A stretch of 45,931 nucleotides of DNA from a virus, in IMG/VR virus record IMGVR_UViG_3300009610_000019. One strand, given 5' to 3'. The notes beneath the pieces were generated by a model that was not told where the DNA came from, made no database searches, and worked only from the letters and a program-made list of their open reading frames with translations. The first letter of the stretch is position 1. The number at the start of each line of letters is the position of its first letter. Shown one piece after another: positions 1 through 45,931 of the stretch. The position numbers and the translations under genes are program-made.

Positions 1-123
1 ACGGGCGGCGGCTGGATGCCGCGGGCGCGCGCGTCCTCGACCGCCACCTCTTTGCGCAACTGCTCGGCGCGGGCCTGGTCCTCGCGGGCGGTGCGGATGA
101 TGGCGTCCTGCCTGCTCTCGTCC
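1..123. repeat. 123-bp terminal direct repeat, identical to 45809..45931 (circular-assembly overlap or terminal redundancy)
   Basis: Bases 1-123 (acgggcggcggctggatgcc...cctgctctcgtcc) recur exactly as the last 123 bases. A minus-strand reading frame runs through the junction in phase. Confidence 0.95.
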
Positions 124-33761: not shown

Positions 33762-33947
33762 ATGCTGCCGACAGGTTGGAAGGAGGCCACGTCATTAGTG
33801 CCAGCAGGTCGTCCGGAGAAAACACAACGTAACGTGAGGGTCCGGGATCTGTACCGACAGGGCCTCTCGATGCCGGCGTTGGCGAAACGGTTCCGCGTTT
33901 CGGTCCAGCGCATCTATCAGATCGTTCATGCCAAGGAGAAGTTGTGA
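33762..33947 (+). CDS. small helix-turn-helix protein, 61 aa (start uncertain; alternative GTG at 33798)
   Basis: RDLYRQGLSMPALAKRFRVSVQRIYQIV HTH pattern. The palindrome CCTTGAGTCAAGG (33747-33759) lies just upstream. Confidence 0.55.
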   Translation: MLPTGWKEATSLVPAGRPEKTQRNVRVRDLYRQGLSMPALAKRFRVSVQRIYQIVHAKEKL

Positions 33948-34648
33948 CCATCTTCAAGCGTATCGCCGCTGTTCTGATGCTCGCTCTTGTGTCCGTGCTG
34001 TTGGTGACGGGCGCCAACGCCGCCGCCATGCCCACGGCGGCACAAGTGCAGAACGATGCGGAGCACCTGCCGAACCTGGCCTGGGGTGCCGTGGACTTCT
34101 CGATCATCCTGGGTGACGAGGAATGCGCCCCGGACGGGTACGTCCAGGTGCCGATCTATGCATTCGCCACGACGGGCGACCTGCGATTCGTCAAGGTGAC
34201 GGTCGAGTACGACCACCAGGCGTACACGTTCGAGGGCTTCTCGAACGCCGCGTCAGGCGGATACTTCGACACGAACGACGATCTCCCGTTCGGCGTGTCG
34301 CACGAGGACATGACGGAGAACGCCATCGTCATGTGGTCGGGCGGCAACTGGGGCACTGGCGGGCTCATGGGCTACGCCAACTTCACGGCGCTCGACGAGT
34401 GGAGCGCCTACACCGCGGCGCTGCGGTTCGATGATTACTGCGGCGCTGGCGTGTCCCACGTCGAATTGCTGGCGTACGACACGGAGTCGCCGTACGGGCT
34501 CATCGGTGCCGCGGTCAACATGTGTAACGAGTACGACGAACTGACGGCGCTCGACGGCTCGATCACTATCGTGCCGGCCAAGGTGCGCACCGGCCCTGTT
34601 GCCGTGCAGTCGCGGACCTGGGAGCAGGTCAAGAAGCTGTATCGGTAG
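33944..34648 (+). CDS. secreted protein, 234 aa
   Basis: Signal peptide MTIFKRIAAVLMLALVSVLLVTGANA|AA. GTGA-coupled. Confidence 0.65.
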   Translation: MTIFKRIAAVLMLALVSVLLVTGANAAAMPTAAQVQNDAEHLPNLAWGAVDFSIILGDEECAPDGYVQVPIYAFATTGDLRFVKVTVEYDHQAYTFEGFSNAASGGYFDTNDDLPFGVSHEDMTENAIVMWSGGNWGTGGLMGYANFTALDEWSAYTAALRFDDYCGAGVSHVELLAYDTESPYGLIGAAVNMCNEYDELTALDGSITIVPAKVRTGPVAVQSRTWEQVKKLYR

Positions 34649-35340: not shown

Positions 35341-35424
35341 TCATCTGGATGGTCGAACGCAGGGAACGGCGCTCCGAGTCAAAGCGCGACACGGACGACA
35401 AGACGGGATGGAAGGGGTACTGAC

Positions 35425-36354
35425 GTGAACGGAGAGACGCTGTACAAGGTGCTTGTGGATGGAAAGTCCTGTCACGGCGGCACGATGGAGTGGAGCCTGC
35501 CGCAGGGCGACGCGCCCGGCGAGTGGCACCGATACGACGGCGCGCTCAAAATTTGCGAGCGCGGCATTCACCTTACCCGGAACCCGATGGCCTGGTACAA
35601 GCACCGGGCTCGGATCTTCGAGGCCGAGGCGGATGGCATCGCGGAGTGGCAAGGCGACAAGTGCGTCGCCCAGGCAGCGCGGTTGATTCGAGAGGTCGAG
35701 GCCCCAGCCCTGTGGGCGCGCATCGAGAAGTTCGTGGACGGCATCGCGAGCGTGCAGTGGTTCAAGCCGGACGGGAAGCCGGACCCAGAGTGGAAACTGT
35801 TCACCGGCGATACGTGGGACACAGCGGGGGCCGCAGCGTGGGACGCAGCGAGGGCCACAGCGAGGGCCGCAGCGTGGGACGCAGCGAGGGCCGCAGCGTG
35901 GGACGCAGCGAGGGCCGCAGCGAGGGACGCAGCGTGGGACGCAGCGTGGGCCGCAGCGAGGGCCGCAGCGAGGGACGCAGCGTGGGACGCAGCGTGGGCC
36001 GCAGCGAGGGCCGCAGCGTGGGCCGCAGCGAGGGACGCAGCGTGGGACGCAGCGTGGGCCGCAGCGAGGGACGCAGCGTGGGACGCAGCGTGGGCCGCAG
36101 CGAGGGCCGCAGCGAGGGACGCAGCGTGGGCCGCAGCGTGGGACGCAGCGAGGGCCGCAGCGTGGGACGCAGCGGGGGCCGCAGCGGTGGCCGCAGATCT
36201 CCTTGCACGCATCGAATTCGTCCGCGATCTCTCCATCGACCCCAAGCACATCGAGCACGCGGAGGCGCGCTGGCGGGTGTGGCAGAAGGGCTACGCGCTG
36301 CTTTGCGATGTAGATGGCGTGCTGTATGTGTATGCGAAGGGAGGACTGACGTGA
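35425..36354 (+). CDS. protein with a globular N-domain and a 128-aa A-A-[W/R]-[D/A] repeat helix, 309 aa
   Basis: GTG after GGAAGGGG. The N-domain reads [17 protein letters not shown]...ICERGIHLT. The repeat region is in frame, and the C-terminus after it is non-repetitive. Confidence 0.7.
35809..36192 (+). repeat. 32 tandem copies of a 12-bp unit, GCAGCG[T/A]GGG[A/C]C
   Basis: Counted unit by unit. 27 units fit the consensus exactly. The variants are at the edges (gatacgtgggac, acagcgggggcc, acagcgagggcc, gcagcgggggcc, gcagcggtggcc). Confidence 0.95.
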
Positions 36355-36548
36355 AGGATGAGAGGATTCGCAGCCTCGCGCGCATCTGGCTCGATCTTGG
36401 ATTGCACGACGAGATGGAGGCGTCGCTGGTAGCTACGATCAAGCGTGCCCTCGCGGAGAGGGACGCGGAGATCGTGGCGTGGGCAGAGGCACAGGGCAGG
36501 CACGGTGCACTGATCGCCTTCCTGAAGGGGGCTGACGATGCCGGGTGA
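36351..36548 (+). CDS. hypothetical protein, 65 aa
   Basis: GTGA overlap at the start, and the sequence ends DDAG-stop in the conserved junction. The motif KDERIRSLA...[11 protein letters not shown] is shared with 38899..39135. Confidence 0.55.
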
Positions 36549-36744
36549 GATCCCCAAACACGTCGCGGATGAAGTGAAGCGGCGGGCCAAGATCGGGACC
36601 GGGATCATGGGCTACATCGAAGCACACGCTGATGCGAAGCGCCGCCATGCGGCTGGCGAACGTCAGCGCAGGTGTCCCGTGTGCATGAAGTGGTTCTGGG
36701 AAGTTGAGGCGCACAAGTGTCCGGAGGTCCGCGATGCCGGGTGA
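36538..36744 (+). CDS. MPGE-cassette protein A, Cys/His zinc-binding, 68 aa
   Basis: Begins [18 protein letters not shown] and contains CPVC...HKC. 64/68 aa identical to 37294..37500. Confidence 0.7.
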
Positions 36745-37138
36745 GATCACACAGCGGGACACCGCAATTCGGCTCGACCTTATGACGGAGGACGTGCCAG
36801 TCGTGGGTTGGACGCTCAAGTATGCGGTACCAGCCAAGCGGTATCCGTCAATCAACGATTTCGCGGAGCCCTTCGACATCCGCTTCGAGACACCGAAGGA
36901 AGTCGTGTACGAGCTTCGGAATCTGATCCTCGGGGATCGGTTTGTTCCCGTGTATGTCCCGCGCGGGTTCTTGCAAGGGCTTGGGACGCTGACGGATGTC
37001 ATCAACGTCTACGGGAACGAGCGCGAGAAGTACGGGACGGACAAGGTGCTCGCCGTGGTGAACGATACGCTCGGGATTGACATTGCGATGGCGATTCGAT
37101 TCGCCGTGAGACGCATGGAGGCCCCCGATGCCGGGTGA
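36734..37138 (+). CDS. MPGE-cassette protein, 134 aa
   Basis: ATG 36734 inside the junction GATGCCGGGTGAGA. Begins MPGEITQRD. Confidence 0.6.
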   Translation: MPGEITQRDTAIRLDLMTEDVPVVGWTLKYAVPAKRYPSINDFAEPFDIRFETPKEVVYELRNLILGDRFVPVYVPRGFLQGLGTLTDVINVYGNEREKYGTDKVLAVVNDTLGIDIAMAIRFAVRRMEAPDAG

Positions 37139-37304
37139 GAAGAACCAGTTCTGGGACCAATGTACCTGCGGGCACTTGCGCGACGAGCACAAGCGGTTTG
37201 GTGGCGAGTGCCAGGACGACGATTGCAAGTGCATCTGTTTCGACTGGGACCCCGACGCGAGCGACATCCACGATATTGCTCGGGAGGAAAACGGTGCCGG
37301 GTGA
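37128..37304 (+). CDS. MPGE-cassette Cys/His mini-protein, 58 aa
   Basis: Sequence MPGEKNQFWDQCTCGHLRDEHKRFGGECQDDDCKCICF, ending NGAG-stop in the junction. Not in the track (under 60 aa). Confidence 0.55.
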   Translation: MPGEKNQFWDQCTCGHLRDEHKRFGGECQDDDCKCICFDWDPDASDIHDIAREENGAG

Positions 37305-37500
37305 GAAACCAAAGCACGTTGCTGACGAGGTGAAGCGGCGCGCCAAGGTCGGCACTGGCATCATGGGCTACATAGAAGCACATGCTGATGCGAAGCGCCG
37401 CCTTGCGAATGGCGAGCGCCAGCGCAGGTGTCCAGTGTGCATGAAGTGGTTCTGGGAAGTAGAAGCGCACAAGTGTCCGGAGGTCCGCGATGCCGGGTGA
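37294..37500 (+). CDS. MPGE-cassette protein B (paralog of 36538..36744), 68 aa
   Basis: GTG start in the junction GGTGCCGGGTGAGA. About 30 nucleotide differences from copy A give only 4 amino-acid changes. Confidence 0.7.
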   Translation: MPGEKPKHVADEVKRRAKVGTGIMGYIEAHADAKRRLANGERQRRCPVCMKWFWEVEAHKCPEVRDAG

Positions 37501-37723
37501 GAAGAAGGGGCAGGCGCTTCTGTTGCTTACGTTGTTGGCAGGATGCGACAACCGGGACGACGGCTACCGATACATTGTGCAGACGCCGTACAAAACCTAC
37601 ATCGCTAGCGCCTGGTGTCCGGCGTACACCAACAACTGCATCGAGATCCGGCTTGTCTCCGGTGAGCGGGTGCGGATTTGTGGCTCTTACTCTATCCGGG
37701 ATTCGGTGATGAGCCATGACTGA
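37490..37723 (+). CDS. MPGE-cassette small lipoprotein, 77 aa
   Basis: MPGEKKGQALLLLTLLAGC has a canonical lipobox LAGC. Confidence 0.65.
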   Translation: MPGEKKGQALLLLTLLAGCDNRDDGYRYIVQTPYKTYIASAWCPAYTNNCIEIRLVSGERVRICGSYSIRDSVMSHD

Positions 37724-41703: not shown

Positions 41704-44700
41704 TCAGTATCCGGATGACTCGCGCCTCTTTTCGACCTTGCGTCGCTCCTTCTCATCCTGTCGCAAGTCCGATCTGGCGGGGATGCCAAACCACGGACCC
41801 CAGAACGGCTCCGGCATGTTCTGAATCATAAACGACCGCGCCGCATCTGACTTGCCAGTCGCTCCGGTGCGGTAGGCGGCCTGCCCAGCGTCGGCTGCGG
41901 TGCCGAGCGTTGCGCCCAGGATCTTCTCACCCGCGTCGCGCCCGTAGGAGCCCGAGAAGATGTCGAAGGCTGCGATGAGCGACGAGTACATGCCGGCCCC
42001 TGCCATCGTCTCGATGATCTGGTGCGACAGCGGATCGTCCTTGGCGTTTTCGTCCTTGCGCAGGGCTGCGAGCGCCCGATAGATACCGTACCCAAGCCCG
42101 AGGCTTGCAGCCGTGCCGGCGAAGAGTTTCATCTGCGCGGCCTTGTTGCGGACGGTGCTCTTGGGGTCGGTGAAATTCCACTCGCGGTGGAACTCGGCCG
42201 TCGCCCGCAGGTTGAACTGCTGGAACTTGAACATCTCTTTGCCGATGGGGTGCTGCATGACGGCCGGCATGTCGCGCGGCTCGCTGCGCCCGTTGGTGCG
42301 CGCCACCAGCCACTCGGCGGCGTTGATCTTCAAGGCTTCGATCTCGGCCGCCGTGTGCGTCGGCTTGAGCGCAATCTTCTGTACAGCCGGGTCCTGCCAC
42401 AGCTCGCGCGCTACGTCCTGGTAGTAGTTCTTGTTGCCGAATCGGGTGGTCTGCCCAGACCTGATGGCGTGCTCGATCTCCGGGATGAGCGCGTGAATCG
42501 AGCGGCGCGCCCACATGCTCGCCTTGAGACGCGGCAGGCGGTCCAGCGGCGTCACCAGGTACGGGTACTTCAAGAGCATGTGCGTGCCCTTGCCGATGAT
42601 CCCGGAGAGCGACGAGAGGACGTGCGAATACTCGTTCCGCATCGCCGTGCCCATCTCATGCACAAACAGGTCGTGCTCCTCGTTGTAGAACTTCTTCCGG
42701 AACTCCTTCGGCAGGTGCGACTCGGAGACGGCGTACCGGAACGAATCGTTCATCGCCCGGAGCCCGTCGCGGTAGCGAACCGGGTACTTCATCTCGTTCG
42801 CCCACGTCGAGAGCTGCCGGATGCCGGCGCGCCCGAGCGACTTGACCGACACCAGGGCCGAGAGGTTGTTGAGCGCCTGGCTCGTGGTCTTGGGCGCCTG
42901 GTTGCTGGCGATGTCGAAGAGCGTCGCCATCGCGTCCGTGTTCTGCCGGTCGCCCTTCGCAACGTCCATGATGTCGCGGGCGAGTTCCATGTCGCCGCCC
43001 CACATGCGCGCCATCTCAACGCGGCGGATGATATTCGGGAAGTACATATCGAATAGCTTCACCGGGTCGAGCACCCGGCCGGACTTCACGTCGAGCAGCC
43101 GGTGGCGGTCCAGGAAGTTGGCGTGGCTGGCTTCCGGTTCCCCGATGCTGATGTTGAACAGCGGATCTTCGGCCATGCCGCTCATCTTGCTCAGGTGGTC
43201 GCGGACCTGTGCGCGCGTCATGTCGGGGCGGGCCTCGATGGCCTCGTCGATGATCTTCTCCTGGAGCGCCTGGGCGCGCTCGTACTTCTCCTGCCACGCG
43301 CGGACTCCCAGCCGGCCGATCTTCCGCGGCTCGGGCGTCAGGGCCTCGGGTGCAATGACCACCGGCAGGCCGTACATGGGCATCTCGACCCAATGCTTGA
43401 TCGTGTCGGTGGCCTCGACGGCGGTCGATGCGAGCTGGTCCGACCAGAACTTCGTCAAGGCGTCCGAGACGATGGATTCTTCCTTCGTGAGCCCCGCCAC
43501 ACGCCGGCCGTCGATCATGCGCGACGCCCAGTCTGCGATGACACGGACCTTGGTGTTGGCGTTCTCCTGTACGTCCTTCGGCATCGGCTTGCCGGAGACG
43601 ACGTGCTCCCAGAACGCCTCGAAGTGCTTCGTCTCCTTGGCGTTCATGGTGCGCGTGAAGTCGTCCTTGAGCCCGGCCTTCTCCTGCGCTTCGACCAGTA
43701 TGCGCTTGTACTCGAACAGGAGTCGGCCGGCGCGTGTGTTGACGGCCTGCTCCACGAAGTTGACGCCACGGTTCAACGCCTCGCCCGGTGCGCCGAACCC
43801 AGTGAGCGCGTGGCTTGCCGACTGGAGCTTGCGCGTAATGAGGTTCGGCTGGTGCGGCGCCGTGACGCCGGGTGCGTCGGAGCCCTGGAACAGATGCTCG
43901 CGCCCCAGGTCTGGCTCCAGGTCGCTCTTCTGGTACTGGACCTTGCGCTCGCTGGGCTGCTCGACCGGGCGGAAGATGCGATCCTCGCCCACGCCGATCT
44001 CCGGGAAGATTTGGTCGATGATGCTCTCGATGCGCCGCGGACCGGGCTGGCCGTTCATGGCGAGGCGTGCGCCTTCGGGCGTGTCCATCGGTCCAGGGCG
44101 CAGCGGGCCGCGGTCGAGTGGCGTGCGAGCCCACGCCTCGGCGCTCGCACGCTCGGCGCCCTTGAGGCGGCCGACCTGTGGCTTGCGCCCCCTCGGGAAG
44201 ATGACGAACGGCAGCCCCGCGAGCGCGACCTTCTTGGCTTCTTCGTCGTCCGATGCTAGGATGGTGCCCGCAACCGCCCCGGCCAGACCGTAAGCGATAT
44301 ACTTGCCGGAATCTCCCTTACGACCACCCTTCCGCTGACGGTTGCGGGTTTTCTCTTCGACCTCTTCGCGCTGGTTGTGACGCTCGACGGCGTCGGCCAG
44401 CTTGTCGGCAACGCGCCTGTCCTTCGCAGTGGATGGTCCCGCCTCGGGGGACTTGTCGGCCTTGTCTCCGAGAATGACCTTGGCGCGTGTGACGGCGCGC
44501 TTCTCGCGCGGCATGCTGTTCTTCTCGATGTCGGCGCTGACTTCGTGGACGGGGCGCGTGGCAGCATCGACGGCCTTCTCGACCATCGGTCCGAACTCGC
44601 GGCCGTACTTCTTGGCGAGGTAGTCGATGGCTTCCGGCGCGCTGGCGAAGATCGAGTCCCAGTTTTGGTTGACGAACTTCTCGACCACCTTGCGGTTGCG

Positions 44701-45931
44701 CTGCTCGGTGGTCATGCCCTCGTATTCCTTCTCGTTTCCACCGAGCATCCCGCGAATCCGCTCGTCCATGTACAACTCGTCGTTTGCAACCTCGTTCTGC
44801 GCGCGCGCGGCTGCGACGACCTCGCTGCGATTGAGGCGTCCCATGTTCGGCGCAAGGCCAGCCTGTTCCAGCGCGTGCTGCTCAAGCTGCATGCCACGCA
44901 ATTCCGCGGTGCTGGACTTGGCCTTGCGAAGCGACACTTCGAGGAACTGGTCGAAGTCTGGGCGCAGGTTCGGGTCCATTTCGTCCCAGGCGTCGAAGGC
45001 TTTGCGCGCGACCTCTCCCAGCTTATCGACGCGCTTCGGGTCGATCTTGCGAGCACCGTAGGCTACGGAGCCCTTCGCTGGCTTCGGCGGTTTGCCGGGC
45101 TTCTTCTCGACGGGCGGCGCCTCCGGCTTCGGCTGCTCGGCAACGGGCGCGACCTTCGGCGGCTCCGGCGGGGCGGCGGCCTTGACCGGCGGCGGGGACT
45201 CGCCGCGGCCCTTGAACGCGGCGCGCACCTTCCCGAACTCCGTGCGCTCCGTCTGCTTCGGTGCAGCGCGCAGCGGCTCGCGCGGGGTGGCGGCGACCGG
45301 CGGCGGCGCCGGAATCTCGCGGAGCGGACCTGCGACTTCGGTAGGCGCCAGCCGGCGGACCGTCTTGTTGAGCGCCCGCTGGGCCTTCTTCTTTGGCAAC
45401 CGCTTGGGACGGGTTGGTACCAGGCGTGACTCGGCGGCACGCTCGCCGGTCGGCAGGTTGGTCGGCGCCCCGGTCTTGCGGTACTTGGTCGCGGCGCGCG
45501 CGCCCGGCGGGGGCGGCTCTTGGCGGCCGGCCACGGGTGGCGGCTTCGTCCCACCGAACTTCGGCCCGAACTCGCGCGCCTGGATCTGGGTGCGCAACTG
45601 CTCGGCGGGCGACGGCGGCGGGGCGGGCGGCGGCGCCAACTCGCCTTCCATCGCGGCCACGTCCGCGTCTGTAGCCTCATCCAGCCGGAACCGCTTCATG
45701 CCGGGCTCGGCCTCGCCGCGGGCGGTGGCGCGTTCGAGCATGCGCGCCCTTGTCGTGACCGGCGGCTCGGCCCCGACCGGACTCGGCGGCGGTGCGACCG
45801 TAGGCCCCACGGGCGGCGGCTGGATGCCGCGGGCGCGCGCGTCCTCGACCGCCACCTCTTTGCGCAACTGCTCGGCGCGGGCCTGGTCCTCGCGGGCGGT
45901 GCGGATGATGGCGTCCTGCCTGCTCTCGTCC
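41704..45931 (-). CDS. giant virion protein, C-terminal part (continues upstream into 1..1847; 45809..45931 duplicates 1..123)
   Basis: The frame is open to the window edge. The track M at 45867 is an internal TTG (Leu). There is a Pro/Ala/Lys-rich low-complexity centre (about 45060-45700) and a long helical C-terminal region. Confidence 0.75.
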   Translation of the reverse strand, partial: DESRQDAIIRTAREDQARAEQLRKEVAVEDARARGIQPPPVGPTVAPPPSPVGAEPPVTTRARMLERATARGEAEPGMKRFRLDEATDADVAAMEGELAPPPAPPPSPAEQLRTQIQAREFGPKFGGTKPPPVAGRQEPPPPGARAATKYRKTGAPTNLPTGERAAESRLVPTRPKRLPKKKAQRALNKTVRRLAPTEVAGPLREIPAPPPVAATPREPLRAAPKQTERTEFGKVRAAFKGRGESPPPVKAAAPPEPPKVAPVAEQPKPEAPPVEKKPGKPPKPAKGSVAYGARKIDPKRVDKLGEVARKAFDAWDEMDPNLRPDFDQFLEVSLRKAKSSTAELRGMQLEQHALEQAGLAPNMGRLNRSEVVAAARAQNEVANDELYMDERIRGMLGGNEKEYEGMTTEQRNRKVVEKFVNQNWDSIFASAPEAIDYLAKKYGREFGPMVEKAVDAATRPVHEVSADIEKNSMPREKRAVTRAKVILGDKADKSPEAGPSTAKDRRVADKLADAVERHNQREEVEEKTRNRQRKGGRKGDSGKYIAYGLAGAVAGTILASDDEEAKKVALAGLPFVIFPRGRKPQVGRLKGAERASAEAWARTPLDRGPLRPGPMDTPEGARLAMNGQPGPRRIESIIDQIFPEIGVGEDRIFRPVEQPSERKVQYQKSDLEPDLGREHLFQGSDAPGVTAPHQPNLITRKLQSASHALTGFGAPGEALNRGVNFVEQAVNTRAGRLLFEYKRILVEAQEKAGLKDDFTRTMNAKETKHFEAFWEHVVSGKPMPKDVQENANTKVRVIADWASRMIDGRRVAGLTKEESIVSDALTKFWSDQLASTAVEATDTIKHWVEMPMYGLPVVIAPEALTPEPRKIGRLGVRAWQEKYERAQALQEKIIDEAIEARPDMTRAQVRDHLSKMSGMAEDPLFNISIGEPEASHANFLDRHRLLDVKSGRVLDPVKLFDMYFPNIIRRVEMARMWGGDMELARDIMDVAKGDRQNTDAMATLFDIASNQAPKTTSQALNNLSALVSVKSLGRAGIRQLSTWANEMKYPVRYRDGLRAMNDSFRYAVSESHLPKEFRKKFYNEEHDLFVHEMGTAMRNEYSHVLSSLSGIIGKGTHMLLKYPYLVTPLDRLPRLKASMWARRSIHALIPEIEHAIRSGQTTRFGNKNYYQDVARELWQDPAVQKIALKPTHTAAEIEALKINAAEWLVARTNGRSEPRDMPAVMQHPIGKEMFKFQQFNLRATAEFHREWNFTDPKSTVRNKAAQMKLFAGTAASLGLGYGIYRALAALRKDENAKDDPLSHQIIETMAGAGMYSSLIAAFDIFSGSYGRDAGEKILGATLGTAADAGQAAYRTGATGKSDAARSFMIQNMPEPFWGPWFGIPARSDLRQDEKERRKVEKRRESSGY
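45809..45931. repeat. second copy of the 123-bp terminal repeat
   Basis: Identical to 1..123. Confidence 0.95.

What the first reader, a model, noticed from the sequence alone, without database searches (positions are those of the whole stretch)
35809..36192. 32 in-frame copies of a 12-bp unit that varies at only two nucleotide positions, giving a two-bit A-A-[W/R]-[D/A] repeat
Seen in the sequence:
- 35809-36192 is 32 consecutive 12-mers, and 27 of them fit GCAGCG[T/A]GGG[A/C]C exactly.
- Variation is therefore confined to unit positions 7 and 11. These toggle Trp/Arg and Asp/Ala, giving the tetrapeptides [12 protein letters not shown] and AAWA.
- All four tetrapeptides are used, partly in a 48-bp super-repeat (RA-RD-WD-WA at 35905-35952 and again at 35953-36000).
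- The array sits inside CDS 35425..36354, after a ~125-aa globular domain (CHGG...ICERGIH) and before a normal C-terminus.
- The unit has no stop codon in any of the six frames, which explains the pile of overlapping track ORFs here.

Inference:
- A 4-residue period would place W/R in one slowly winding stripe of an alpha-helix, with D/A in the adjacent stripe.
- That could form a ~128-aa (roughly 19 nm) Ala-rich rod stabilised by Trp-Arg stacking and Asp-Arg i/i+3 salt bridges.
- Perfect 12-bp units are ideal for slipped-strand gain or loss without a frameshift, so rod length and the W/R-D/A code could vary within a population.

I recall Ala/Trp/Arg-rich tails on uncharacterised phage and bacterial proteins with a similar C..G.H N-domain. 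I cannot verify this, and I know of no assigned function.
Basis: partly seen in the sequence, partly recalled or inferred. Interest (0 to 1): 0.7.

Follow-up and report, generated by a model that had tools for sequence, protein, structure and literature searches.

The report
Hypervariable four-residue repeat in phage protein
A phage gene carries 32 nearly identical 12-base repeats that differ at only two bases each. They encode an alanine-rich helical stretch whose length and two exposed residues per unit change quickly between near-identical phages, as in the fast-evolving recognition repeats of TAL effectors and fungal immune receptors, but its function is unknown.

Summary

- **Array:** window 35809-36192 is 32 in-frame 12-nt units. 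27 fit GCAGCG[T/A]GGG[A/C]C.
- **Gene:** it lies in a 309-aa gene (35425-36354) of a complete ~46-kb tailed-phage genome.
- **Family:** the protein belongs to a large uncharacterised family (>3000 homologs). The layout is an N-terminal DUF7666 domain, an AA[W/R/G][D/A] array of 3 to about 32 units, and a conserved [16 protein letters not shown] tail.
- **Length polymorphism:** near-identical phages from other samples carry 28, 17 and 8 units. All are nested in-register deletions.
- **Family-wide signature:** in 30 independent arrays the synonymous Ala sites are fixed within an array but differ between arrays. Unit nt 7 and 11 stay highly polymorphic.
- **Interpretation of that signature:** concerted evolution with two hypervariable residues per unit, as in TALE repeats and the high-internal-conservation repeats of fungal NLRs.
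- **Structure:** AlphaFold predicts helix, but folded back as a hairpin at the array midpoint, not one 19-nm rod.
- **Known families:** no known fold, family or paper explains the function.
- **Best guess (inferred):** a fast-evolving binding surface attached to a constant DUF7666 domain.

The parts
35410..35417 (+). Shine-Dalgarno-like GGAAGGGG, 7 nt upstream of the GTG start
   Evidence: Read directly from the sequence. The same start is used in the called homolog P0001.
35425..36354 (+). CDS of the 309-aa repeat protein (GTG start, TGA stop)
   Evidence: ORF list. More than 3007 homologs share the same N and C termini. GC3 is 0.79 against GC2 0.61.
35443..35712 (+). DUF7666 (PF24703) domain, residues 7-96; beta-rich, with invariant W34, C44, G47, H49, W57 and K79
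   Evidence: Pfam E 2.8e-5, 25 bits against a cut-off of 27. 54 of 57 family members match. pLDDT is above 90. BFVD Foldseek hits are DUF7666 proteins of phages and giant viruses.
35713..35808 (+). First part of the second domain, residues 97-128: a helix, then the conserved FKPDGKP..W(K/R)LF strand that anchors the array
   Evidence: Conservation (W123 invariant). AF2 elements H95-107 and E124-128. The same motif occurs in array-less Micrarchaeota homologs.
35809..36192 (+). Array of 32 twelve-nt units (residues 129-256) encoding AA[W/R][D/A]; unit string 12ab5ababcadbcadbdcadcadbcdabayz
35833..36168 (+). Homogenised core, units 3-30: 27 of 28 fit GCAGCG[T/A]GGG[A/C]C. All Arg are AGG and all first Ala are GCA
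   Evidence: Codon usage: AGG is 5.4% of Arg codons genome-wide and 13/13 in the array.
35905..36000 (+). Two copies of a 48-nt super-repeat (units 9-12 and 13-16: RA-RD-WD-WA). One copy is missing in allele L062/P0001
36025..36096 (+). Two copies of a 36-nt super-repeat (units 19-21 and 22-24: RD-WD-WA)
35998..36030 (+). Predicted hairpin turn (residues 192-202) at the array midpoint; low confidence and no turn-specific sequence
   Evidence: AF2 model, 10-residue-block mean pLDDT about 44 at the turn, with helices 131-191 and 203-246 either side. The short allele turns at its own midpoint, 144-152.
36193..36354 (+). Conserved C-terminal module, residues 257-309: helices plus the beta-hairpin [23 protein letters not shown] (invariant G289 and Y303)
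   Evidence: 10-residue-block mean pLDDT 83-95 over residues 261-300. The module occurs on its own in archaeal MAG proteins.

Best explanation
**What it is.** The array is a translated in-frame minisatellite inside an accessory (early-region) gene of a tailed phage. The protein has a constant DUF7666 N-domain and a second domain whose N-terminal strand and C-terminal beta-hairpin flank the array.

**Structure (inferred).** The array forms an Ala-rich alpha-helical hairpin that projects from the globular body. Its length is set by the unit number.

**How it evolves.**
- Shown: the array evolves by unequal recombination or replication slippage between units. This adds, deletes and reshuffles whole units. 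It keeps all units of one array identical at synonymous sites (concerted evolution).
- Partly inferred: selection keeps two solvent-exposed residues per unit polymorphic. These are codon 3, NGG (W/R/G), and codon 4, GNY (D/A/G/V).

**Evolutionary type.** It is therefore a high-internal-conservation repeat with hypervariable sites.

**What it does (inferred, not shown).** The hairpin is most likely a rapidly re-tunable interaction surface. It would direct or regulate the conserved DUF7666 domain against a variable host or competitor target.
For: **Real and coding**
- establish the array and its ORF.
- Homologs conserve the reading frame, and the Ala-Ala dipeptide is encoded by 10 different codon pairs across arrays. 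This shows purifying selection at the protein level.

**Length polymorphism**
- Alleles of 32, 28, 17 and 8 units are nested in-register deletions. They occur in contigs 98.8-100% identical outside the array, from at least four other assemblies, both ENA and JGI.
- Eleven further groups with at least 95% identical N-domains differ in unit number.
- P0006 and P0015 have 139/139 identical N-flanks and 18 units each, yet differ in 13 of 18 units.

**Concerted evolution plus maintained diversity**
- In 30 arrays the mean minor-base fraction is 0.45 at nt 7 and 0.32 at nt 11, against 0.04 and 0.05 at the fourfold Ala sites.
- nt 7 exceeds both Ala sites in 29/30 arrays (p 6e-8) and nt 11 in 26/30 (p 6e-5).
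- Array codons are unadapted: AGG 13/13 and GCA 29/29.
- Sister DUF7666 proteins with 24-nt units show the same pattern.

**Structure**
- AF2 gives mean pLDDT 83.5 (pTM 0.64) for the 32-unit allele and 86.3 (pTM 0.74) for the 8-unit allele. The array is helical and the turn sits at the array midpoint in both.
- W/R alternation at i, i+4 is enriched, z about 5.

**Binding-surface inference**
- The evolutionary signature is the one described for the WD40 sensor repeats of Podospora NLRs (PMC12222747) and for TALE-like hypervariable repeats (PMC10392669).
- From general knowledge (Bogan and Thorn 1998): the alphabets used (W, R, G, D, N, Y) are typical interface hot-spot residues.

**Stand-alone gene**
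- No conserved neighbouring gene appears across 53 viral loci.
Against: - There is no functional evidence of any kind. Pfam, PHROGs, NCBIfam, PADLOC, PDB sequence and Foldseek searches give no annotated relative, and no paper mentions DUF7666 or the motif.
- AF2 confidence within the array is only moderate and the turn is low-confidence. Alanine-rich repeats are easily over-predicted as helix. I could not inspect coordinates, so contact between the two arms is inferred from topology only.
- A 4-residue period does not fit canonical coiled-coil packing.
- The variable alphabets are exactly the one-step codon neighbours (NGG, GNY). This is also what mutation plus tolerance would sample.
- The enrichment of W/R alternation could partly reflect duplication of multi-unit blocks.
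- Short alleles come from short-read assemblies. PCR or template-switch deletions cannot be excluded without reads.
Confidence: 0.5

Rival explanations
1. Passive length-variable spacer or rod. The array would be a single stable alpha-helix, or a stalk, whose only role is to set a distance. W, R and D would serve helix stability, and the variation would have no recognition role.
For: - The array is predicted helical.
- Unit number ranges widely, from 3 to 32, with intact flanks.
- W-R i, i+4 enrichment fits intrahelical stacking.
Against: - The helix breaks at the midpoint in both alleles modelled.
- Asp-Arg i/i+3 pairing is not enriched.
- Gly makes up 17% of position 3, which is odd for a stability-optimised helix.
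- A pure spacer would be homogenised at nt 7 and 11 like the synonymous sites, yet diversity there is about 10 times higher.
- Arrays of equal length and identical flanks differ in content.
Confidence: 0.2
2. Neutral runaway minisatellite. The array would be a tolerated low-complexity expansion inside a loop of the second domain, with no function of its own. Its pattern would reflect only slippage plus one-step mutations that avoid stop codons.
For: - The variable residues are one-step codon neighbours (NGG, GNY).
- Array codons are unadapted.
- Archaeal homologs of the second domain lack any array.
- Family members with only 3-5 units exist.
Against: - The array is present in essentially all of more than 100 inspected family members, with a stable composition: W fraction 0.33 +/- 0.11, never zero, and net charge about -0.12 per unit.
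- Diversity is concentrated at two nonsynonymous sites, while neutral fourfold sites are nearly monomorphic.
- The changes are mostly transversions, not the usual transition bias.
- The same design recurs with a different unit (24 nt) behind the same N-domain.
Confidence: 0.17
3. Nucleic-acid-level element. The selected feature would be the periodic GGG tract or 12-nt iteron in DNA or mRNA (G-quadruplex, origin iterons, recombination hotspot), and the peptide would be incidental.
For: - GGG at unit nt 8-10 is the consensus in 26 of 30 arrays.
- The array has strong G over C skew, 0.26.
- The gene lies near recombination and replication genes here and in one prophage.
Against: - The frame is always the AAxx frame, and Ala codons vary synonymously between arrays.
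- Array RNA is less structured than shuffles (-180.8 against -193.6 +/- 5.2 kcal/mol), and no G-quadruplex enters the minimum-free-energy structure.
- Sister 24-nt arrays behind the same domain lack the 12-nt GGG periodicity of this array's unit, yet show the same evolutionary pattern.
- There are no Rfam hits and no other copies of the unit in the genome.
Confidence: 0.04
4. Assembly artefact. The 32-unit length or order would be a mis-assembly of a shorter or different array.
For: - Many metagenomic contigs of this family end inside the array.
- Short-read assemblies give different unit numbers.
Against: - All k-mers of 76 nt or more in the array are unique, so it can be resolved.
- An independent 28-unit contig is identical apart from one 48-nt block.
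- A JGI contig reproduces units 1-12 and the start of unit 13 in order.
- De Bruijn contigs at k=141 cannot contain junctions absent from reads, so the short alleles also derive from sequenced molecules.
Confidence: 0.04

Closest known systems
High-internal-conservation (HIC) repeats of fungal NOD-like receptors (WD40/ANK/TPR sensor domains of Podospora HET-E/HET-D; PMC12222747)
   Same: - Units within one gene are nearly identical at the DNA level through concerted evolution.
- A few codon positions per unit are hypervariable.
- Unit number is polymorphic between alleles, and short-read assemblies fail at the locus.
- A constant N-terminal domain is joined to the variable repeat module.
   Different: - The unit here is 4 residues (12 nt) instead of about 42.
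- The predicted fold is a helical hairpin, not a beta-propeller or solenoid.
- There is no NACHT or NB-ARC domain.
- The host is a bacteriophage, and the ligand and function are unknown.
TAL effector repeats (34-aa units with two repeat-variable residues)
   Same: - A tandem array of near-identical units.
- Exactly two adjacent variable residues per unit.
- Arrays evolve by unit recombination, and the variable residues form a combinatorial string.
   Different: - The unit is about 8 times shorter.
- There is no sequence or fold similarity.
- There is no evidence of nucleic-acid binding.
- The array is near neutral in charge.
DUF7666 (Pfam PF24703) proteins of phages and giant viruses
   Same: - The N-terminal domain matches the model and the predicted fold of BFVD DUF7666 proteins.
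- The CxxGxH motif is conserved.
   Different: - Pfam covers only the N-domain. The repeat array and the C-terminal [16 protein letters not shown] module are not in any Pfam family.
- Other DUF7666 proteins carry 8-residue arrays or a non-repeat domain instead.
Diversity-generating retroelements (the known phage mechanism for targeted protein hypervariation)
   Same: A phage-encoded protein with variation confined to a few codon positions.
   Different: - There is no template-repeat copy in the genome.
- The variation is not adenine-specific: the A at unit nt 3 is invariant.
- No DGR template repeat accompanies the array, and no gene of any kind is conserved next to the family's genes.
- Diversity arises by unit shuffling.
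Ala-rich antiparallel helical pairs (Alacoil) and single-alpha-helix (ER/K) domains
   Same: An alanine-rich, predicted all-helical, elongated segment of variable length.
   Different: - The period is 4, not 7.
- The composition is not E/K/R-rich.
- Trp is exposed in every third unit on average.
- Packing geometry is untested.

Membership tests
DUF7666 (PF24703) | HMM score at or above the Pfam gathering threshold (27 bits) | tested here: not met
   The window protein scores 25 bits, E 2.8e-5, over residues 7-96 of a 95-position model. This is just under the cut-off.
DUF7666 (PF24703) | Homologs and predicted fold fall in the family | tested here: met
   - 54 of 57 aligned homologs match PF24703, best E 1.8e-10.
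- Precomputed PF24703 annotation is present on many hits.
- The Foldseek BFVD top hits are DUF7666 proteins, probability 1.00.
HIC (high-internal-conservation) hypervariable repeats | Units of one gene are 80-100% identical at the DNA level, while arrays of different genes differ | tested here: met
   - Core units differ at 2 or fewer of 12 nt.
- Fourfold Ala sites are about 95% monomorphic within arrays, yet 10 different codon pairs are used between arrays.
HIC (high-internal-conservation) hypervariable repeats | A few codon positions per unit are hypervariable beyond the neutral sites | tested here: met
   nt 7 and 11 have minor fractions of 0.45 and 0.32, against 0.04 and 0.05 at synonymous sites. 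This holds in 29/30 and 26/30 arrays. A formal dN/dS codon model was not run.
HIC (high-internal-conservation) hypervariable repeats | Repeat-number polymorphism between alleles | tested here: met
   32, 28, 17 and 8 units in this phage, and 11 other lineages.
Fungal/bacterial NLR | NACHT or NB-ARC NTPase domain with WD40, ANK or TPR repeats | tested here: not met
   No such Pfam domains were found.
TAL effector | 33-35-aa repeats with RVDs at positions 12 and 13, and DNA binding | tested here: not met
   The unit is 4 aa and there is no Pfam or PDB similarity. DNA binding is not testable here.
Diversity-generating retroelement target | Template repeat plus reverse transcriptase, with adenine-specific substitutions | tested here: not met
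   There is no second copy of the array in the complete genome. The A at unit nt 3 is invariant in 31/32 units.
Pentapeptide repeat (PF00805) | Five-residue A(D/N)LXX period forming a beta-helix | tested here: not met
   The period is 4, there is no Pfam hit, and the array is predicted helical.
Single alpha-helix (ER/K) domain | E/K/R-rich sequence with i, i+4 salt bridges and one uninterrupted helix | tested here: not met
   The array is at least half Ala (both fixed positions of every unit, plus Ala at a third of position 4). Asp to Arg i+3 pairing is not enriched. The helix is broken at the midpoint in two models.
G-quadruplex / iteron DNA element | Structure or sequence conserved at the nucleic-acid level independently of coding | tested here: not met
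   - No G-quadruplex in the minimum-free-energy structure, which is weaker than the shuffles.
- Unit DNA is not conserved between arrays at synonymous sites.
- Rfam finds nothing.

The most novel reading that the evidence does not exclude
The AA-X-Z units could form a modular, reprogrammable recognition code with the shortest unit known: 4 residues, about 6 Å of helix rise. Each unit would contact one monomer of a linear or periodic target, for example one nucleotide of single-stranded nucleic acid or one repeat of a host polymer or filament. Phage populations would re-programme specificity by shuffling units rather than by point mutation. That would be a DGR-independent diversity-generating system, and DUF7666 would act as the constant effector domain.
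Probability: 0.07. Interest if true: 0.9.

Novelty: new variant of a known kind. Interest (0 to 1): 0.65.

Why it matters
- **A different route to hypervariation.** Phages are known to hypervary proteins with diversity-generating retroelements. This would be a retroelement-independent route: a coding minisatellite whose units are kept identical by recombination while two exposed residues per unit, and the unit number, change between otherwise identical genomes.
- **Scale of the family.** The N-domain search found 1166 clusters at 50% identity, and more than 3000 close homologs were recovered. The family is absent from cultured phage collections and has no known fold or function.
- **Breadth of the design.** The same design recurs with a second unit type behind the same DUF7666 domain. 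This points to a general constant-domain-plus-tunable-array architecture in viruses.
- **If it is a binding surface.** It would be a candidate arms-race interface with host defences. It would also be a very compact natural scaffold for engineered binders.
- **Practical consequence.** The locus is a systematic assembly breakpoint and a ready-made strain marker in viromes.

Tried and rejected
**Searches for a known relative**
- tblastn of the whole protein and of the N-domain against 50,697 cultured phage records gave no match, apart from one weak hit at E 0.09.
- PADLOC and NCBIfam gave nothing for the protein or its neighbours.
- PHROGs gave only weak hits to unknown-function families.
- PDB profile search gave only an artefactual poly-Ala hit to a ribosomal protein model.
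- Foldseek against PDB, for both models, gave nothing below E 0.6.
- Literature searches for DUF7666 and for the peptide motifs found nothing relevant.

**Genomic context**
- Conserved-neighbourhood analysis of 53 viral loci found no shared neighbour gene.
- The genome-collection scan with the 57-sequence alignment failed. With 9 sequences it found only archaeal MAG homologs that lack the array.
- The promoter/terminator scan around the gene was no better than shuffles.
- There are no tRNAs and no Rfam families in the window.

**Rival mechanisms considered and rejected**
- DGR: no template copy, and the variation is not A-specific.
- G-quadruplex or RNA structure.
- Alternative-frame ORFs as genes: they exist only because the unit is stop-free.

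**Not possible with these tools**
Full report
**1. Observation**

Window 35809-36192 is exactly 32 consecutive 12-nt units. 27 of them fit GCAGCG[T/A]GGG[A/C]C. The other five are edge or near-edge units (1, 2, 5, 31, 32).

Position 7 is T16/A13/G3 and position 11 is C17/A15. All other positions are at least 30/32 invariant. The units translate to AAWD (9), AARA (7), AAWA (6) and AARD (5).

Tandem Repeats Finder gives period 12, 32.0 copies, no indels and score 530. The next best array in the window scores 55.

Written as letters (a = AAWD, b = AARA, c = AARD, d = AAWA), the unit string is 12ab5ababcadbcadbdcadcadbcdabayz. It contains a doubled 48-nt block (cadb, 35905-36000) and a doubled 36-nt block (cad, 36025-36096).

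The unit has no stop codon in any frame. This explains the four long overlapping ORFs listed.

**2. The array is real and coding**

The 309-aa ORF 35425-36354 has more than 3007 homologs at E of 1e-3 or better. They share the N-terminal about 128 residues, an AAxx array in the same frame, and the tail ...[23 protein letters not shown].

The longest exact repeat inside the array is 75 nt, so a de Bruijn graph with k of 77 or more resolves it. An independent JGI contig (Ga0180082_1003188) ends inside the array after reproducing units 1-12 and the start of unit 13 in the same order. A mis-assembly is therefore unlikely.

**3. Genomic setting**

- The first and last 123 nt of the window are identical, so it is a circularly assembled complete genome of about 45.8 kb.
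- It encodes a large terminase, a major head protein and an SSB.
- On near-identical contigs it also shows an Mgm101-like annealase, RusA and an M15 peptidase.
- It is a tailed phage with 64% GC, no tRNA and no Rfam element.
- The repeat gene sits at the head of a rightward block of small ORFs of unknown function, next to the divergent recombination module. In a prophage-like region of a 3.9-Mb contig, a homolog also lies among early, recombination and replication genes.
- Across 53 IMG/VR loci no neighbouring gene is conserved. The gene behaves as a stand-alone accessory gene.

**4. Architecture**

Residues 7-96 match Pfam DUF7666 at 25 bits against a cut-off of 27. 54 of 57 relatives match the model.

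AlphaFold2 with a 57-sequence alignment gives mean pLDDT 83.5 and pTM 0.64. The model has these elements:
- a beta-rich N-domain with pLDDT above 90;
- helix 95-107 and strand 124-128;
- helix 131-191;
- a low-confidence turn at 192-202;
- helices 203-246, 249-266 and 273-287;
- a beta-hairpin at 291-305.

The 8-unit allele (P0003) gives mean pLDDT 86.3 and pTM 0.74, with helix 131-143, turn 144-152 and helix 153-170.

In both alleles the turn lies at the midpoint of the array. I infer that the array is a folded-back helical hairpin anchored at both ends in the globular body, so it is not a single 19-nm rod.

Foldseek finds no PDB relative. In BFVD it finds only DUF7666 proteins of phages and giant viruses.

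Scanning one genome per species with the C-terminal motifs found five loci, all in Micrarchaeota or other uncultured archaeal MAGs. The two read in full (L058, L059) encode 194-214-aa proteins. They have the FxPDGxP..WKxF strand, a non-repetitive helical stretch with relic SAWDAA and EVWDAV motifs, and the [17 protein letters not shown] tail. They have no DUF7666 domain and no array. Residues about 99-309 are therefore a separable domain, and the array is an expansion within it.

**5. Length polymorphism**

| Source | Assembly | Units | Unit string | Flank identity to the window |
|---|---|---|---|---|
| Window | not known | 32 | 12ab5ababcadbcadbdcadcadbcdabayz | reference |
| L062 | ENA ERZ27267731 | 28 | lacks one cadb block | 100% |
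| L063 | JGI 3300011429 | 17 | 12ab5ababbcdabayz | 98.8-99.0% |
| L001, L002 | ENA ERZ27267692, ERZ27267981 | 8 | 12ab5ayz | 99.5-99.9% |

All the short alleles are nested in-register deletions with the remaining units unchanged.

Contigs built at k = 141 contain only k-mers present in reads. The short junctions therefore come from sequenced molecules, although library-PCR deletions cannot be excluded.

The phenomenon is general. Eleven groups of proteins with at least 95% identical N-domains differ in unit number.

P0006 and P0015 have 139/139 identical N-flanks and 18 units each, but differ in 13 of 18 units while using the same unit vocabulary. Arrays are reshuffled far faster than the flanks accumulate substitutions.

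**6. Family-wide evolutionary signature**

In 30 independent arrays from IMG/VR loci plus the window, the mean minor-base fraction per unit position is:

| Unit nt | Site type | Mean minor-base fraction |
|---|---|---|
| 7 | first base of codon 3 | 0.45 |
| 11 | second base of codon 4 | 0.32 |
| 8-10 | rest of codon 3, first base of codon 4 | 0.10-0.13 |
| 3 | fourfold-degenerate Ala | 0.04 |
| 6 | fourfold-degenerate Ala | 0.05 |

- nt 7 exceeds both Ala sites in 29/30 arrays (p 6e-8) and nt 11 in 26/30 (p 6e-5).
- Between arrays the Ala-Ala codons differ, with 10 different pairs.
- Units are thus homogenised within each array (concerted evolution), Ala-Ala is under purifying selection, and two sites remain near-maximally polymorphic.
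- If those two sites were merely tolerant, homogenisation should erase their diversity as it does at the synonymous sites. Either selection for heterogeneity or site-specific mutation is therefore required.
- In this array the changes are transversions (T/A, A/C, T/G), which are not the usual mutational bias.
- All 13 array Arg codons are AGG. That codon is 5.4% of Arg codons genome-wide and 0 of 12 elsewhere in the same gene. All 29 first-Ala codons are GCA, against 11.6% genome-wide. R is therefore one step from W (TGG), and the array is evolutionarily young.
- Family-wide, position 3 is R 38%, W 34% and G 17% (that is, NGG). Position 4 is D 49%, A 34%, with some N, Y and G.
- W-R and R-W neighbours are enriched (z 5.2 and 5.3) and WW and RR are depleted. 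D followed by R (i, i+3) is not enriched (z -0.5). Net charge is about -0.12 per unit.

**7. The same design recurs with another unit**

A phmmer search with the N-domain alone finds 1166 representatives at 50% identity clustering. Besides the AAxx class, DUF7666 is joined to two other modules:
- 8-residue arrays of the form [GD]S[AS]xV[TRE]A[YSTCRWH];
- a non-repeat domain of about 250 aa.

The 24-nt arrays again have fixed third codon positions and toggling first and second positions in 2-4 codons. This argues against an explanation specific to the GGG tract of the 12-nt unit.

**8. Rival explanations tested**

- **RNA or G-quadruplex structure.** The array folds less stably than shuffles (-180.8 against -193.6 +/- 5.2 kcal/mol), and no G-quadruplex enters the minimum-free-energy structure.
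- **DGR.** There is no second copy of the array in the complete genome, and the adenine at unit nt 3 is invariant.
- **Known repeat families.** Pentapeptide, Imm-type and others give no Pfam hit in any of 57 members.
- **Defence or anti-defence catalogues.** Nothing was found.

**9. Interpretation**

*Shown.* The array is a translated minisatellite in a DUF7666-family phage accessory protein. Its unit number is polymorphic and it undergoes concerted evolution. Diversity is concentrated at two residues per unit.

*Inferred.*
- The array forms a helical hairpin.
- The diversity is maintained by selection.
- By analogy with TALEs and fungal NLR high-internal-conservation repeats (PMC12222747; PMC10392669), and because the alphabets are rich in interface hot-spot residues (general knowledge), the hairpin is a fast-evolving interaction surface coupled to the constant DUF7666 domain. 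Its invariant Cys, His and Lys might be catalytic or metal-binding.
- The target and the biological role are unknown.

I put about 0.9 on the structural-genetic description. I put about 0.7 on selection-maintained hypervariability. I put about 0.4 on the binding-surface function. The composite statement gets 0.5.

**10. Novelty**

The domain is catalogued as a DUF, and in-frame VNTRs are common. I found no description of this repeat class, its 4-residue unit, its family-wide two-site hypervariability, or its occurrence in phages. It is best filed as a new variant of the known kind [quoted passage not shown].

Noticed in passing
window 36527-37506 (+): There are five copies of a 28-nt gene-junction cassette, GGAGG-N5-(A/G)TGCCGGGTGAGA, at 36527, 36723, 37117, 37283 and 37479. 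Each has an SD-like GGAGG, the start codon of the next small ORF, and the TGA stop of the previous ORF 8 nt later. The ORFs therefore all begin MPGE and end DAG. It looks like a reiterated translational-coupling module.
   Followed up: partly
window 36535-36746 and 37291-37502 (+): A 212-nt direct repeat (89% identity) encodes two paralogous 68-aa Cys-rich ORFs (…[27 protein letters not shown], zinc-ribbon-like). Neither has a PHROG hit.
   Followed up: no
window 1-123 and 45809-45931: The first and last 123 nt are identical, so the window is a circularly assembled complete phage genome. Near-identical contigs (L001, L002) run across this junction.
   Followed up: yes
L057-L061 (Candidatus Micrarchaeota / uncultured archaeon MAGs): The only hits in one-genome-per-species prokaryote contigs are five loci in DPANN-archaeal MAGs. 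The two read in full (L058, L059) encode 194-214-aa proteins with the C-terminal module but no DUF7666 and no tandem array. One sits in an 89-kb contig beside cellular-looking ORFs, judged by eye and not searched. This is an unexpected taxonomic link for a phage gene family.
   Followed up: partly
L012, L017, L022, L025, L027; proteins P0141, P0174, P0182, P0211, P0214, P0226: A sister class of DUF7666 proteins carries 24-nt (8-residue) arrays, [GD]S[AS]xV[TRE]A[YSTCRWH]. Third codon positions are fixed and a few first and second positions toggle. Similar arrays occur in Mycobacterium phages Squirty gp51, ThetaBob gp59 and Frankie, and in Gordonia phages, all annotated as hypothetical.
   Followed up: partly
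L006, L011, L015, L016, L018, L024, L025, L028/L030, L064: Many metagenomic viral contigs end at or just inside this gene's array. One circular contig (IMGVR_UViG_3300009610_000010) is broken exactly there, with the gene split across its two ends. The array is a systematic assembly breakpoint.
   Followed up: partly
window 41704-45867 (-), continuing across the circular junction: A giant ORF has no PHROG or Pfam hit. It is at least 1387 aa in the window, and the precomputed gene table for contig L002 gives a 1983-residue product. It lies next to a putative M15 endolysin.
   Followed up: no
protein P0005 (179 aa, 796-nt ENA contig): This variant has the identical N-domain and 5 units, but then an unrelated C-terminus (…AAVQPTVELLQVSAADLLTRMIAVTEATDAAF). 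It could be a chimeric contig, a frameshifted array or a recombinant. This was not resolved.
   Followed up: no
window 33944-34648 (+): Two genes upstream of the repeat gene is a 234-aa ORF with an N-terminal hydrophobic, signal-peptide-like segment (MTIFKRIAAVLMLALVSVLLVTGANAAA). It has no family hit and may be a secreted or membrane moron.
   Followed up: no
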